DNA of 37,061 bases, from the NCBI GenBank assembly GCA_001772665.1, contig MEVH01000015.1:13223-50283 (forward strand), read 5' to 3'. Numbering within the stretch: position 1 is the first letter of the stretch; each line of letters begins with the position of its first letter. This DNA is from a candidate division WWE3 bacterium RIFCSPLOWO2_01_FULL_39_13 (lineage in GTDB: Bacteria; Patescibacteriota; WWE3; 2-01-FULL-39-13). The position numbers and the translations under genes were made by a program. This document shows, piece by piece, positions 9,283 to 13,964 of this stretch. Below the pieces are notes generated by a model that saw only the letters and a list, made by a program, of their open reading frames with translations, was not told the DNA's origin and searched no databases.

Positions 9283-9343
9283 TGGTGGTGAGGGTGAGAA
9301 TCGGTCGCCACAGGCGACTTTCAGACCGGTGCCATGACTCACC
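9283..9343 (-). pseudogene. Defective tRNA-Phe copy carrying a 15-nt hairpin replacement
   Basis: 21 nt identical to the tRNA-Phe 3' end including CCA, then GTCGCC-ACA-GGCGAC (9304-9318), the anticodon region, and a 13-nt deletion across the acceptor/D-arm. Confidence 0.85.
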
Positions 9344-9370
9344 AATTAACTTATCCTCTACACCTTCTTC

Positions 9371-9446
9371 TGGTGGTGAGGGTGAGAATCGAACTCACAT
9401 AGCCGGTTTTTCAGACCGGTGCCGTGACCAACTTGGCTACCTCACC
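9371..9446 (-). tRNA. tRNA-Phe(GAA)
   Basis: Reverse complement folds as a cloverleaf: GGTGAGG/CCTCACC acceptor, CCGGT-CTGAAAA-ACCGG anticodon arm, TTCGATT T-loop, encoded CCA. Confidence 0.95.
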
Positions 9447-9472
9447 AAAATTTCAAACACATTATTTTATCA

Positions 9473-9644
9473 TGGAGGCCCGTATCGGAATCGGTCGCCA
9501 CAGGCGACTTGCAGACTCATGCCTTACCTCCATCCATTATCTTATCCATCGCTATATCTGGAGGCCCGTATCGGAATCGGTCGCCGTAGGCGACTTGCAG
9601 ACTCATGCCTTACCTCCATCCATTATCTTATCCATCGCTATATC
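9473..9644 (-). repeat. Two tandem 86-bp units, each a partial tRNA-Cys copy with hairpin replacement plus a 33-nt tail
   Basis: Units 9473-9558 and 9559-9644 are identical except the hairpin loop (ACA vs GTA). The third period starts the intact tRNA-Cys at 9645. Confidence 0.92.
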
Positions 9645-9718
9645 TGGAGGCCCGTATCGGAATCGAACCGATGGTGAGAGTTTTGCAGACTCATGCCTTG
9701 CCACTTGGCGAACGGGCC
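9645..9718 (-). tRNA. tRNA-Cys(GCA)
   Basis: GGCCCGT/ACGGGCC acceptor, U73 discriminator, CTGCAAA anticodon loop, ATCGG-TTCGATT-CCGAT T-arm, encoded CCA; 74 nt. Confidence 0.95.
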
Positions 9719-9721
9719 ACA

Positions 9722-9976
9722 CTATAAATTTAAATTATCTCCTAACTTCTTTTTAATTTGCTCCCTTCCTCGTCCACTCTTGATAAACTTTTCTCTTCTT
9801 TCAGCTTCAAACTTTTTTTTATAACATTCAAAATAAATCAACACAGGTTTCTGCCCACGAGTTGTTCTAACCTGACCGTTTAAATGCTCTAGCATCCTCC
9901 TGTCTAAATTATTCGTATATCCATAATAAAACCTGTTATTCTTTTGTCTAAGGACATAGACATAATACATTTTCAC
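9722..9976 (-). CDS. Small standalone GIY-YIG nuclease (UPF0213/Slx1-like)
   Basis: YYVYVL…FYYGYT motifs, LDRRMLEH and AERREKFIKSGRG; 82-84 aa (start GTG 9976 or ATG 9970). Confidence 0.9.
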   Translation of the reverse strand: MKMYYVYVLRQKNNRFYYGYTNNLDRRMLEHLNGQVRTTRGQKPVLIYFECYKKKFEAERREKFIKSGRGREQIKKKLGDNLNL

Positions 9977-9977
9977 C

Positions 9978-10066
9978 GAGACCCGTATCGGAATCGGTCA
10001 CCGTAGGCGACTTGCAGACTCATGCCTTACCACCCTCCTACGGCGGGCATGCTTGGCGAACGAGCC
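9978..10066 (-). pseudogene. Near full-length defective tRNA-Cys copy with two hairpin inserts
   Basis: Colinear with 9645-9718 but has GTCACC-GTA-GGCGAC (9997-10011), a D-loop insert containing CCCTCC-TAC-GGCGGG, acceptor substitutions and no CCA. Confidence 0.85.
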
Positions 10067-10088: not shown

Positions 10089-10097
10089 ATTATACCA
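10089..10097 (-). promoter_or_regulatory. Extended -10 (TGGTATAAT), probably driving the pseudo-tRNA/GIY-YIG/tRNA cluster
   Basis: Perfect TGn-TATAAT about 22 nt upstream of the first tRNA-like copy. Confidence 0.55.
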
Positions 10098-13300: not shown

Positions 13301-13744
13301 TTATAATGATATCTTCTTTATTACTGCATCGGGCTCCATTCTGATTACCCCAATTTTGTCAAAATCCTTGTCATATGAAATCACTATCCACTCTCGGCTT
13401 GAAACATTATCTATAGAGGATATTAATGCATCAATATACTTTACAGATTTATCGTTATAGATCCTAAGCGCACCTTCATAGTTGTACTTGTCCACGATAT
13501 CAAGCCCGTGGAGATTATGTATACTTTGAAGCGAGTAAATTACATCTTCTTTTGAAAGCCTGTAAAACGACTTCAGTGTCCAGACTATTTCCGCTAAAAT
13601 AATCCCTGCAGTAACCGATTTAACCTTATTCATTTTAACAAGCTTCAAAAACCCTACACAGTCATTAAACATTCGTGCATCATCTTTTATTATTGTTCTC
13701 AGAAAAATATTAGAGTCAATAAAATAGGTTTTAGACTCTTTCAT
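13301..13744 (-). CDS. PIN-domain (VapC-like) toxin
   Basis: FIDSNIFLR, AEIVW, YIDALI and SYDKDF acidic PIN motifs. Confidence 0.9.
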   Translation of the reverse strand: MKESKTYFIDSNIFLRTIIKDDARMFNDCVGFLKLVKMNKVKSVTAGIILAEIVWTLKSFYRLSKEDVIYSLQSIHNLHGLDIVDKYNYEGALRIYNDKSVKYIDALISSIDNVSSREWIVISYDKDFDKIGVIRMEPDAVIKKISL

Positions 13745-13964
13745 AGTTTTTCTCTAACGATTCTCTCGCCAAAAGGATGGATTTATTTCCTTTCGACTTG
13801 AACTTTCCCGCAATATCAAGGATGTCATGCGTAGGCACAACTTTTATATTCTTCCCAAAAGCCTCTATCTTTACTTTGTCATAAATCTTTATTCCAAGAT
13901 TGTCCCTTATCGTTTTTGGAAGTGTTATCTGTCCTTTTTGAGTAACCGTAGTCACATAAGTCAT
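13731..13964 (-). CDS. AbrB/MazE-family antitoxin
   Basis: VTQKGQITLPKTIRDNLGI; overlaps the PIN gene start. Confidence 0.9.
   Translation of the reverse strand: MTYVTTVTQKGQITLPKTIRDNLGIKIYDKVKIEAFGKNIKVVPTHDILDIAGKFKSKGNKSILLARESLEKNYERV

What the first reader, a model, noticed from the sequence alone, without database searches (positions are those of the whole stretch)
9304..10011. The same 17-nt tRNA segment is replaced by the same hairpin in two different tRNA species
Seen on the + strand: in Phe, AATCG[AACTCACATAGCCGGTT]TTTCAGAC becomes AATCG[GTCGCCACAGGCGAC]TTTCAGAC. In Cys, AATCG[AACCGATGGTGAGAGTT]TTGCAGAC becomes AATCG[GTCRCC-NNN-GGCGAC]TTGCAGAC. Both lost segments are 17 nt, read AAC-N11-GTT, and run from just after position 37 to just before C56. 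Loops are ACA in the Phe copy and Cys unit 1, and GTA in Cys unit 2 and the upstream copy, so loop type follows adjacency, not tRNA identity. Inference: random decay cannot give identical junctions in unrelated tRNAs. This points to site-specific cut-and-replace or templated conversion, possibly destroying a nuclease target site.
Basis: partly seen in the sequence, partly recalled or inferred. Interest (0 to 1): 0.8.

Follow-up and report, generated by a model that had tools for sequence, protein, structure and literature searches.

The report
Hairpin-capped tRNA fragments beside a nuclease gene
Partial copies of three tRNA genes in this tiny bacterial genome have a fixed inner stretch swapped for a short GC-rich hairpin, and comparison with relatives ties such copies to a small selfish-looking nuclease gene that sits inside duplicated tRNA genes.

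Summary
Four partial tRNA copies in the window (one Phe, three Cys) carry GTCGCC-N3-GGYGAC exactly between tRNA positions 37 and 56. There were 0 matches in 100 shuffles.

It recurs: two copies behind a tRNA-Trp gene on another contig (left junction one base earlier), and a Phe copy in another genus.

The best lead is the 82-aa GIY-YIG gene, which is wedged between a hairpin-bearing pseudo-tRNA-Cys and the intact tRNA-Cys.
- Of 22 homologous genes examined in the same class, 18 lie within 300 nt of a tRNA gene.
- Thirteen lie just upstream of an intact tRNA. In 11-12 of these, a pseudo-copy of that same tRNA fused to GC-rich hairpins precedes the gene.
- Four other genomes show the same 37|hairpin|56 junction on Cys or Phe. 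Their hairpin sequences differ, with compensatory changes.

I read the copies as ends or footprints of a tRNA-gene-invading nuclease cassette that keeps one intact tRNA. The hairpin removes the conserved T-loop motif from the leftover copies. The mechanism is inferred, not shown.

Against a simple picture: the same hairpin-C56 junction also ends a widespread, structured, nuclease-free element behind at least 12 tRNA types in Saccharibacteria-like genomes.

The parts
9283..9370 (-). Phe partial copy. Reading the minus strand it consists of: 27-nt spacer (9370-9344), tRNA-Phe-like 5' piece ending at position 37 (9343-9319), hairpin GTCGCC-TGT-GGCGAC (9318-9304), and an exact copy of tRNA-Phe C56-A76 (9303-9283).
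   Evidence: BLAST of tRNA-Phe against the genome: 21/21 identity for positions 56-76 and 19/20 for positions 19-38.
9371..9446 (-). Intact tRNA-Phe (GAA)
   Evidence: ARAGORN; Rfam tRNA match on the same locus
9473..9558 (-). Cys unit 1 (86 nt): spacer, tRNA-Cys positions ~20-37, hairpin with loop TGT (9508-9494), exact copy of C56-A76 (9493-9473)
9559..9644 (-). Cys unit 2 (86 nt): same as unit 1 but with loop TAC (hairpin 9594-9580)
9645..9718 (-). Intact tRNA-Cys (GCA)
   Evidence: ARAGORN; Rfam
9722..9970 (-). GIY-YIG nuclease gene, 82 aa from the ATG at 9970. Its stop codon lies 3 nt before tRNA-Cys. Its start lies 7 nt after the pseudo-tRNA.
   Evidence: ORF list. Pfam PF01541, E 7.5e-13. 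Nearest solved structures are UPF0213 proteins 1zg2 and 1ywl. Y5, Y15, G17, R25, H29 and E60 are conserved in at least 22 of 23 homologues.
9978..10066 (-). Pseudo-tRNA-Cys. It has the 5' part to position 37 with an 18-nt D-loop insert (10051-10034, a decayed CCGCC-GTA-GGAGG hairpin). Then come the hairpin GTCGCC-TAC-GGTGAC (10011-9997) and C56 to about position 74 (9996-9978).
   Evidence: A D-loop hairpin at the same place is seen in the G112 cassette.
10089..10097 (-). TGgTATAAT, an extended -10-like box 22 nt upstream of the pseudo-tRNA. It is a candidate promoter for pseudo-tRNA, nuclease gene and tRNA-Cys together.
   Evidence: Read by eye. Not reported by the consensus scan.

Best explanation
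The hairpin-bearing tRNA fragments are the ends and footprints of a small selfish cassette built around a minimal (Slx1/UPF0213-like) GIY-YIG nuclease gene that lives inside duplicated tRNA genes.

In its full form, as at tRNA-Cys here, the order is: native promoter, 5' part of the original tRNA up to position 37, GC-rich hairpin, 3' remnant from C56, nuclease gene, complete tRNA, then one or more downstream units (tRNA ~20-37, hairpin, C56-CCA).

Inferred mechanism:
1. The nuclease, or recombination that it provokes, acts on the tRNA gene.
2. The cassette enters by recombination through the two homology arms, positions 1-37 and 56-76.
3. One intact tRNA is always regenerated.
4. In every leftover copy the stretch holding the conserved T-loop start (G53-T54-T55) is replaced by a stable hairpin, and sometimes the D-loop is disrupted too. 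The leftover copy is then neither a target nor a working tRNA.

The Phe and Trp copies, which have no nuclease gene, would be footprints left after the gene was lost by recombination between the repeated 5' parts.

Shown: the anatomy, the recurrence, and the association with the nuclease gene. Inferred: cleavage, direction of events, and the role of the hairpin.
For: 1. Anatomy in the window. The nuclease ORF lies 7 nt after the hairpin-bearing pseudo-Cys and ends 3 nt before the intact tRNA-Cys.

2. Association.
- Homologues occur in 75 of 134 genomes of the class, up to 10 per genome.
- In the 29 best loci fetched, 22 homologous ORFs were found. Of these, 18 lie within 300 nt of a tRNA gene on the same strand.
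- Thirteen lie 1-65 nt upstream of an intact tRNA. In 11 of the 13, a pseudo-copy of the same tRNA precedes the ORF (local alignment score 25 or more). One further case was recognisable by eye. All 12 are fused to GC-rich hairpins.

3. Same junction elsewhere. 37|hairpin|C56 is found on tRNA-Cys in G044, G065 and G112, and on tRNA-Phe in G131. G065 and G112 also have downstream units. An alignment of 11 copies from 6 genomes shows 98.5% of hairpin cells paired (0 of 500 shuffles reach this), with G-C/U-A/C-G changes at the two outer pairs.

4. The architecture follows the nuclease lineage rather than tRNA identity (a weakly resolved tree).
- Cys, Phe and Cys cassettes group together.
- Asp and Pro cassettes, both with the whole T arm replaced, form a starred pair.
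- The Gln cassettes, with hairpins inserted at 21/22, form a starred group.

5. Where the nuclease gene lies downstream of the tRNA, a hairpin plus a 3'-end copy follows it in 2 of the 4 cases examined, L315 and L317.

6. The pseudo-Phe of G131 keeps the promoter-proximal flank that stands before tRNA-Phe in its congener G133. The intact copy has an unrelated flank. G132 and G133 lack the cassette.

7. Precedent. T4 SegB is a GIY-YIG homing endonuclease whose 27-bp site contains the 11-bp conserved T-psi-C stem-loop motif of tRNA genes (abstract of PMC2330249).

8. Contrast within this genome. tRNA-Ser fragments beside a tyrosine recombinase gene carry no such hairpin.
Against: - The same hairpin directly before C56 ends nuclease-free elements behind at least 12 tRNA types in metagenomes. 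No homologue of the window's GIY-YIG protein was found by tblastn in any of those loci.
- The intact tRNA next to the nuclease gene still carries the presumed target.
- The protein is only the catalytic domain, with no DNA-binding domain. Sequence-specific cutting is therefore doubtful.
- Hairpins of the same family also lie near tRNAs without any pseudo-tRNA (G131) and in unrelated repeats (G136 and the rRNA inserts of G033). They may be independent palindromic elements.
- The 29 loci were the best matches to the window's protein, so the tRNA association may be overstated for the family as a whole.
- No filled and empty allele pair with conserved flanks at base resolution was found.
- The flank comparison for the window's own pseudo-Cys is uninformative.
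- The protein tree is mostly unresolved: 14 of 20 inner branches are open.
Confidence: 0.5

Rival explanations
1. The hairpin plus C56-A76 is the right end (attR-like junction) of small integrative elements that cross over in the T-loop and duplicate the last 21 nt of the tRNA. These would be moved by a recombinase encoded elsewhere. The GIY-YIG gene is only one of several cargoes.
For: - In 22 of 57 metagenome matches, the 21 nt after the hairpin equal the 3' end of a tRNA gene on the same fetched stretch, 140-540 nt upstream where measured.
- Varied cargo lies between tRNA and hairpin: a Ham1 gene in G010, and ORFs in L217 and L232.
- Synteny breaks exactly at the tRNA-Phe 3' end between G010 and G011.
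- G006 has a PIN/MazE pair between tRNA-Cys and an ordinary displaced 3' half that starts at about position 37.
- Tandem arrays occur in L214 and L217.
Against: - No recombinase gene lies in or beside any of these elements. The three tyrosine recombinase genes of this genome are on other contigs.
- The one classical recombinase-linked tRNA island in the genome has fragments without hairpins.
- The model does not explain why the element carries pieces of the very tRNA it sits beside: positions 20-37, positions 44-53, or an antisense copy.
- Hairpins with compensatory changes and a one-strand G.U pair are unusual for double-stranded att arms.
Confidence: 0.2
2. The hairpin-bearing copies work as RNA. 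They could be a tRNA-shaped leader that lets RNase P/Z cut the nuclease mRNA out of the tRNA transcript. Or they could be decoys or pseudo-substrates that bind a tRNA-directed enzyme but cannot be cut or charged.
For: - Pseudo-tRNA, ORF and tRNA are packed with gaps of 7 and 3 nt behind one promoter-like box.
- In the Asp cassette the anticodon arm and the T arm are each replaced by hairpins of equal size, which keeps a cloverleaf outline.
- The nuclease-free Saccharibacteria-type element has two hairpins with compensatory changes. Of 32 predicted pairs in the element, 22 show such changes. A G.U pair is present in 25 of 26 sequences on the tRNA-sense strand only, and each copy is followed by its own terminator-like hairpin.
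- A published note links prokaryotic Slx1-like domains to tRNA metabolism through a TrmH fusion (passage of PMC1564403).
Against: - No expression data. The only RNA run held just tRNA pieces of other organisms.
- The 3' parts of several pseudo-tRNAs are truncated or decayed, so the acceptor stem cannot form.
- The folds of the window copies are no more stable than shuffles for 5 of 6 sequences.
- From recall, GIY-YIG enzymes are known as DNA nucleases.
Confidence: 0.15
3. The hairpins are independent, genome-specific palindromic repeats (REP- or GC-cluster-like). They colonise dead DNA such as tRNA fragments and are homogenised within a genome. Their link to the nuclease gene is indirect.
For: - Each genome has its own hairpin family: 7 sites in G000, 7 in G131 with none in its congeners, and 27 strand-matches in G136 inside a different repeat.
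- The same hairpin lies in inserts of both the 16S and 23S genes of G033.
- In G131, 5 of the 6 other copies lie near tRNA genes without a pseudo-tRNA.
Against: Random colonisation does not give the same two junction bases (after 37, before 56) in six genomes and three tRNA types with different hairpin sequences.
Confidence: 0.1
4. Chance decay, or one recombination between tRNA-Phe and tRNA-Cys through shared short homology.
For: tRNA-Cys and tRNA-Phe are neighbours here and in G001 and G002. They share GTCTG.AA and CGATTC.
Against: 0 matches in 100 shuffles. The pattern recurs on Trp on another contig, in G010, and in four more genomes.
Confidence: 0.02

Closest known systems
Phage T4 SegB, a free-standing GIY-YIG homing endonuclease in the tRNA gene cluster
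   Same: A GIY-YIG nuclease gene placed among tRNA genes. Its recognition site includes the conserved T-psi-C stem-loop motif of tRNA genes. It spreads itself and the neighbouring tRNA genes (abstract of PMC2330249).
   Different: - SegB-type enzymes carry a DNA-binding part (recalled). The window's protein is 82 aa, catalytic domain only, and of the Slx1/UPF0213 branch.
- The setting is a cellular genome, not a phage.
- The tRNA gene is duplicated and the spare copies are capped with hairpins. That is not mentioned in the SegB abstract I read.
Integrative elements that target tRNA genes and leave partial tRNA copies (attL/attR)
   Same: An intact tRNA plus a direct repeat of its 3' part flanking inserted DNA. 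The breakpoints lie in the anticodon loop and T-loop, the classical sublocations. The general point comes from passages of PMC9897764; the sublocation classes are recalled from Williams 2002, which I saw only in that paper's reference list.
   Different: No integrase in or beside the elements. A hairpin replaces tRNA sequence inside the partial copy. PMC9897764 has 0 occurrences of 'hairpin'.
Species-specific palindromic repeats: bacterial REP/MITE, and GC clusters of yeast mitochondria (recalled)
   Same: Short GC-rich perfect palindromes in an AT-rich small genome, multi-copy, genome-specific, and also found inside RNA genes.
   Different: Here they sit at fixed tRNA coordinates and are tied to tRNA-derived arms and often to a nuclease gene.
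Scaffold-plus-3'-guide RNAs: TnpB omega-RNA and Cas12 crRNA handle (recalled)
   Same: A conserved stem with a free loop is followed directly by about 21 nt that match a nearby target. Upstream lies a structured scaffold with compensatory changes.
   Different: No TnpB-type gene above the family cut-off in 0 of 5 genomes that carry the elements.

Membership tests
GIY-YIG nuclease superfamily (Pfam PF01541), Slx1/UPF0213 branch | GIY-YIG domain with the catalytic Tyr, Tyr-x-Gly, Arg, His and Glu | tested here: met
   PF01541 E 7.5e-13, 49 bits against a cut-off of 22.6. PDB UPF0213 proteins 1zg2 (E 8e-8) and 1ywl. Y5, Y15, G17, R25, H29 and E60 are kept in at least 22 of 23 homologues. The assignment of these residues to catalysis is recalled.
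Free-standing GIY-YIG homing endonuclease (Seg/I-Tev type) | Separate DNA-binding domain that gives a long, specific target site | tested here: not met
   82 aa, one Pfam domain covering residues 3-69, no NCBIfam match.
Free-standing GIY-YIG homing endonuclease (Seg/I-Tev type) | Presence/absence polymorphism among close relatives, and multiple copies | tested here: met
   The cassette at tRNA-Phe is in G131 but not in G132 or G133 of the same genus. There are 0 to 10 copies per genome in the class.
Free-standing GIY-YIG homing endonuclease (Seg/I-Tev type) | Cleaves the allele that lacks the gene; gene conversion follows | not testable with these tools
   Needs enzyme assays or crosses.
Integrase-mediated tRNA-gene integrative element | Direct repeat of a tRNA 3' segment flanking inserted DNA, with the tRNA restored | tested here: met
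   Exact 21-nt copies of C56-A76 behind Phe, Cys and Trp, and in 22 of 57 metagenome matches.
Integrase-mediated tRNA-gene integrative element | Tyrosine or serine recombinase gene within or beside the element | tested here: not met
   The only ORF between the repeats is the GIY-YIG gene. The PF00589 genes of the genome are on contigs C5, C16 and C22, not C15 or C7. Serine recombinases were not searched.
TnpB/IS200-IS605 right-end (omega) RNA | A TnpB gene in the element or at least in the genome | tested here: not met
   PF07282: 0 of 5 genomes above the cut-off, while 8 of 14 control genomes ring. TnpA (PF01797) was not searched.
Any Rfam family | Covariance-model match | tested here: not met
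   Apart from the tRNA genes themselves, nothing reached a family's gathering score, and no match overlapped the hairpin-bearing copies or elements. Searched on L001, L006 and L007 at E up to 1 and on five Patescibacteria loci at E up to 0.1.
Type III toxin-antitoxin (tandem RNA repeats plus nuclease) | Tandem RNA repeats directly upstream of an endoribonuclease toxin gene | tested here: inconclusive
   Tandem units exist (2 x 86 nt, 2 x 51 nt), but they lie after the tRNA, not before the nuclease gene. The nuclease belongs to a DNA-nuclease fold.

The most novel reading that the evidence does not exclude
Patescibacteria harbour an undescribed class of selfish element. Minimal Slx1-like GIY-YIG nuclease genes invade tRNA genes, take over their promoter, and bring or regenerate a working tRNA. 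They cap the leftover tRNA pieces with a genome-specific hairpin that removes the conserved T-loop or D-loop motif. From these arose nuclease-free, structured tRNA-3'-end-linked elements that now sit behind a dozen or more tRNA types.
Probability: 0.35. Interest if true: 0.85.

Novelty: new variant of a known kind. Interest (0 to 1): 0.78.

Why it matters
tRNA genes are among the most conserved and essential sequences in a cell. A nuclease cassette that can live inside them without killing the host would be a new way for selfish DNA to persist in very small genomes. It would do so by duplicating the gene and disarming the spare copies in a fixed way.

It would also give a first biological setting for the standalone bacterial Slx1/UPF0213 nucleases, for which I found no functional study in the paper library. 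It would explain why tRNA finders meet odd partial tRNAs in these genomes.

Finally, the work exposes a conserved structured element next to tRNA genes that is not in Rfam. The claim is directly testable with one small protein and a few DNA substrates.

Tried and rejected
- **Viral contigs.** 30 matches to the hairpin-CGANTC pattern, none tRNA-linked, mostly in high-GC coding DNA.
- **Genome collection scan.** 75 were high-GC chance matches. 5 were from low-GC Patescibacteria records and lay beside tRNA genes.
- **TnpB/omega-RNA idea.** No TnpB found.
- **Hammerhead or other known ribozyme or RNA family.** No Rfam match. The core motifs were checked only by eye.
- **Longer-looped versions of the hairpin in the family.** The extra matches in G001, G002 and G009 lie in coding-looking DNA with no tRNA on the fetched stretch.
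- **Copy-number variation.** A near-identical metagenome contig shows one Cys unit instead of two. The contig ends in the repeat, so this may be assembly collapse.
- **RNA evidence.** The only RNA run covered just the tRNA genes, with unlike flanks, so it says nothing about expression.
- **Conserved neighbour proteins of the nuclease-free elements.** None found.
- **Flank comparison for the window's pseudo-Cys against family relatives.** Too diverged to read.
- **Literature.** Six full-text searches found no description of hairpin-substituted tRNA copies or of tRNA-linked UPF0213 genes. Supplements were not available.
- **Tools lost.** The script machine was lost, so a shuffle test of the flank similarities could not be run.
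Full report
**What is in the window**

The window comes from an 801-kb genome in 31 contigs. Both tRNA genes lie on the minus strand: Phe at 9371-9446 and Cys at 9645-9718. Reading that strand, the order is:
1. a TGgTATAAT box (10097-10089, read by eye)
2. a pseudo-tRNA-Cys (10066-9978)
3. an 82-aa GIY-YIG gene (9970-9722; Pfam E 7.5e-13)
4. the intact tRNA-Cys, 3 nt later
5. two 86-nt tandem units (9644-9559 and 9558-9473)
6. a 26-nt spacer
7. tRNA-Phe
8. a Phe partial copy (9370-9283)

In all four partial copies a 15-nt hairpin, GTCGCC-N3-GGYGAC, stands between tRNA position 37 and C56. It replaces the 17 nt A38-T55. The hairpin pattern has 0 matches in 100 shuffles of the window. Contigs from three public DNA runs reproduce the pieces exactly, so this is not an assembly artefact of one data set.

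**Recurrence in this genome and family**

The whole genome has seven sites of the hairpin and none of the reversed control. Four are in the window. Two follow a tRNA-Trp gene on contig C7 as 51-nt tandem units: GAAGAGAA, GTCTCCA, hairpin, then C56-CCA or a truncated version. One, on C22, is in a different setting.

BLAST of all 45 tRNA genes against the genome shows that only Phe, Cys and this Trp have extra exact copies of their last 21 nt. In Trp the left junction is after A36. The right junction is again before C56.

In the family, 2 of 12 genomes have the hairpin-CGA pattern. In G010, a different genus, a diverged Phe copy (..CCTGAAA, hairpin with loop TCT, CGATTCTCAATCACACCACCA) lies about 610 nt behind tRNA-Phe, with a Ham1 gene in between. 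Its congener G011 has different DNA from the base after CCA onwards.

**The nuclease gene is the best lead**

The window's protein has homologues in 75 of 134 genomes of the class, up to 10 per genome. I fetched the 29 best loci and found 22 homologous ORFs. Of these, 18 lie within 300 nt of a tRNA gene on the same strand. From tRNA density I would expect roughly one.

Thirteen ORFs sit 1-65 nt upstream of an intact tRNA, as in the window. In 11 of these 13, a pseudo-copy of the 5' part of the same tRNA stands before the ORF (local score 25 or more). One more (L303) is recognisable by eye. One (L312) has none. All twelve are fused to GC-rich hairpins.

Four genomes show exactly the window's junctions:

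| Genome | tRNA | Hairpin | Other features |
|---|---|---|---|
| G044 | Cys | CCCTGTG-AAA-TCACAGGG | |
| G065 | Cys | TCCGCC-TAT-GGCGGA | downstream unit with the identical hairpin |
| G112 | Cys | TCCGCC-TTC-GGCGGA | a second hairpin, a D-loop hairpin at the same place as the window's D-loop insert, and a downstream unit |
| G131 | Phe | TCCGCC-GTC-GGCGGA | |

Eleven copies from six genomes align as ..CTGNAA|hairpin|CGANTCC. The two outer hairpin pairs change in a compensatory way (G-C, U-A, C-G). In all, 98.5% of cells are paired, which no shuffle in 500 reaches.

**Other breakpoints, same principle**

- In the Asp cassette (G023) and one Pro cassette (G028), the whole T arm (49-65) is replaced by a hairpin. 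Downstream units repeat this.
- In the Gln cassettes, two hairpins are inserted between positions 21 and 22.
- In the His, Val, a further Cys and the other Pro cassette, the break is in the D arm.
- Where the nuclease gene lies downstream of the tRNA, L315 has a 3' remnant with two hairpins inserted in the T-loop after G57. L317 has a hairpin followed by a 16-nt copy of the 3' end. The other two of four cases show nothing clear.

A maximum-likelihood tree of 24 proteins is mostly unresolved. Still, it groups the three Cys/Phe/Cys cassettes, and it gives starred support to the Asp-Pro pair and to the Gln group. The way the tRNA is broken therefore follows the nuclease lineage across tRNA identities.

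In nearly all cases the disrupted part is the conserved T-loop start or the D-loop.

**Direction of events**

In G131 the pseudo-Phe keeps the promoter-proximal flank that precedes tRNA-Phe in congener G133 (TGCTAgAATaGGgGAGTCtTT against TGCTAaAATgGGaGAGTCcTT). The intact copy behind the nuclease gene has an unrelated flank. G132 and G133 have the tRNA without the cassette. This fits entry into the original gene, with the 5' part left behind.

In the window the same test is uninformative. The pseudo-Cys does share GGCTCG with the G009 allele, where the intact copy has GGCCCG.

A simple scheme explains the nuclease-free Phe, Trp and G010 copies. A cassette carrying tRNA 1-37, hairpin and 56-76 recombines with the host gene through either arm. 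Later loss of the nuclease gene, by recombination between the repeated 5' parts, leaves them behind. This scheme is inference.

**What the protein is**

It is a bare catalytic domain. Its nearest solved structures are the UPF0213 proteins 1zg2 and 1ywl. No NCBIfam model names it. The conserved Tyr, Tyr-x-Gly, Arg, His and Glu are kept in at least 22 of 23 homologues.

A 2006 survey calls the prokaryotic Slx1-like proteins the minimal standalone form. It notes one fusion to a TrmH-like tRNA methylase (passages of PMC1564403).

The closest characterised case is T4 SegB, whose 27-bp site includes the 11-bp T-psi-C motif of tRNA genes (abstract of PMC2330249).

**A complication: a nuclease-free family with the same junction**

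I scanned metagenome contigs for the hairpin followed by CGANTC, 12 free bases and CCA. This gave 57 matches in 54 loci. In 22 matches the 21 nt after the hairpin equal the 3' end of a tRNA gene on the same stretch. All 22 are in loci with G+C of 0.55 or below. None of the 18 loci at 0.57 or above qualify. Four of these loci are near-identical to the window's own genome.

The others, mostly Saccharibacteria-like, are a different element found behind Leu, Ala, Lys, Gln, Ser, Ile and Gly tRNAs (12 anticodons). Its order is:
1. the tRNA
2. a terminator-like palindrome
3. a degenerate antisense copy of the tRNA 3' part
4. a sense copy of positions 44-53
5. two hairpins
6. GGUCGCC-N3-GGUGACC
7. C56-CCA

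. In 26 sequences, 22 of 32 predicted pairs show compensatory changes. The last hairpin is invariant, with a G.U pair in 25 of 26.

A covariance model built from these sequences finds a strong match in G065, in the window's class. It also finds six weaker, full-length matches (22-29 bits). Five of the six end with the last 21 nt of the tRNA just upstream. In all six, GGGGTCG..YGACC is the base of a longer arm.

No homologue of the window's GIY-YIG protein (tblastn), no shared neighbour protein and no TnpB accompanies these elements. Rfam has no match. How they relate to the nuclease cassettes is open.

**Hairpins as repeats in their own right**

- G131 has seven TCCGCC-N3-GGCGGA sites; its two congeners have none. 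Five of the six sites outside the cassette lie within about 160 nt downstream of tRNA genes. Four of these five stand in a CCCGAAA-hairpin-TTGAG frame, which also occurs with other stems.
- G136 has 27 strand-matches of the window's hairpin inside an unrelated repeat.
- G033 has it in inserts of both rRNA genes.

The hairpin could therefore be a separate mobile palindrome. That alone would not give identical junction bases in six genomes.

**Verdict**

However, the hairpin is a genome-specific cap on spare tRNA copies, not a conversion of working genes.

Cleavage, the role of the hairpin, and the tie to the nuclease-free elements remain to be shown. I found no description of this in six literature searches; supplements could not be read.

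Noticed in passing
L205-L258, L047, L071, L093, L166 (alignment A1, model R1): A conserved, about 110-nt structured element stands behind many tRNA genes in Saccharibacteria-like genomes. It has two hairpins with compensatory changes, then an invariant hairpin, then an exact 21-nt copy of the tRNA 3' end. It has no Rfam match and no linked protein gene.
   Followed up: partly
G000 contig C21:3236-3600 (locus L323): A second GIY-YIG gene (41% identical) lies 47 nt behind tRNA-Glu(UUC). It is flanked by AT-rich hairpins and short GCGCTGC repeats of the tRNA end. This tRNA-Glu and the nearby tRNA-Lys(UUU) lack an encoded CCA, unlike the other 43 tRNA genes of the genome.
   Followed up: partly
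G000 contig C22:14009-14420 (L007, L276): An odd tRNA-like sequence that ARAGORN does not call (weak tmRNA-clan hit, 15.7 bits). Its T arm equals that of tRNA-Gly. About 250 nt further on lies a cluster of hairpins that includes the window's hairpin. Model R1 gives a weak match, 18 bits.
   Followed up: partly
window 13301-13964, minus strand: A PIN-domain and MazE/AbrB-type toxin-antitoxin pair just after groEL.
   Followed up: yes
L030 (G006) 700-1580: A PIN plus MazE pair is inserted between tRNA-Cys and an ordinary displaced 3' half of tRNA-Cys that starts at about position 37. There is no hairpin. So small cassettes of other kinds also enter this tRNA gene at the anticodon loop.
   Followed up: yes
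L015 and L017 (G033): An identical insert of about 150 nt containing GTCGCC-CCA-GGCGAC is present in both the 23S and the 16S rRNA gene of one genome.
   Followed up: no
L164, L167-L174 (G136): A repeat with iterated tagata-type words on both sides of the same hairpin gives 27 strand-matches in one genome.
   Followed up: no
L344-L354 (G131), L337 (G132): A genus-wide motif, CCCGAAA-hairpin-TTGAG, with varying stems lies downstream or upstream of tRNA genes, next to other hairpins of the ctcacaagt..acttgtgaaag type.
   Followed up: no
G000 contigs C4:522-598 and C7:54887-54961: The genome has two different tRNA-Trp(CCA) genes, which is unusual for an 801-kb genome. Only the C7 copy carries hairpin units.
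   Followed up: no
L358 (G000 C5:22150-23000) and C5:27299-27990: A classical island at tRNA-Ser(GGA). It has a tyrosine recombinase gene beside the tRNA, a decayed full-length tRNA-Ser-like copy, and a short 3'-end copy about 5 kb away, all without GC hairpins.
   Followed up: partly
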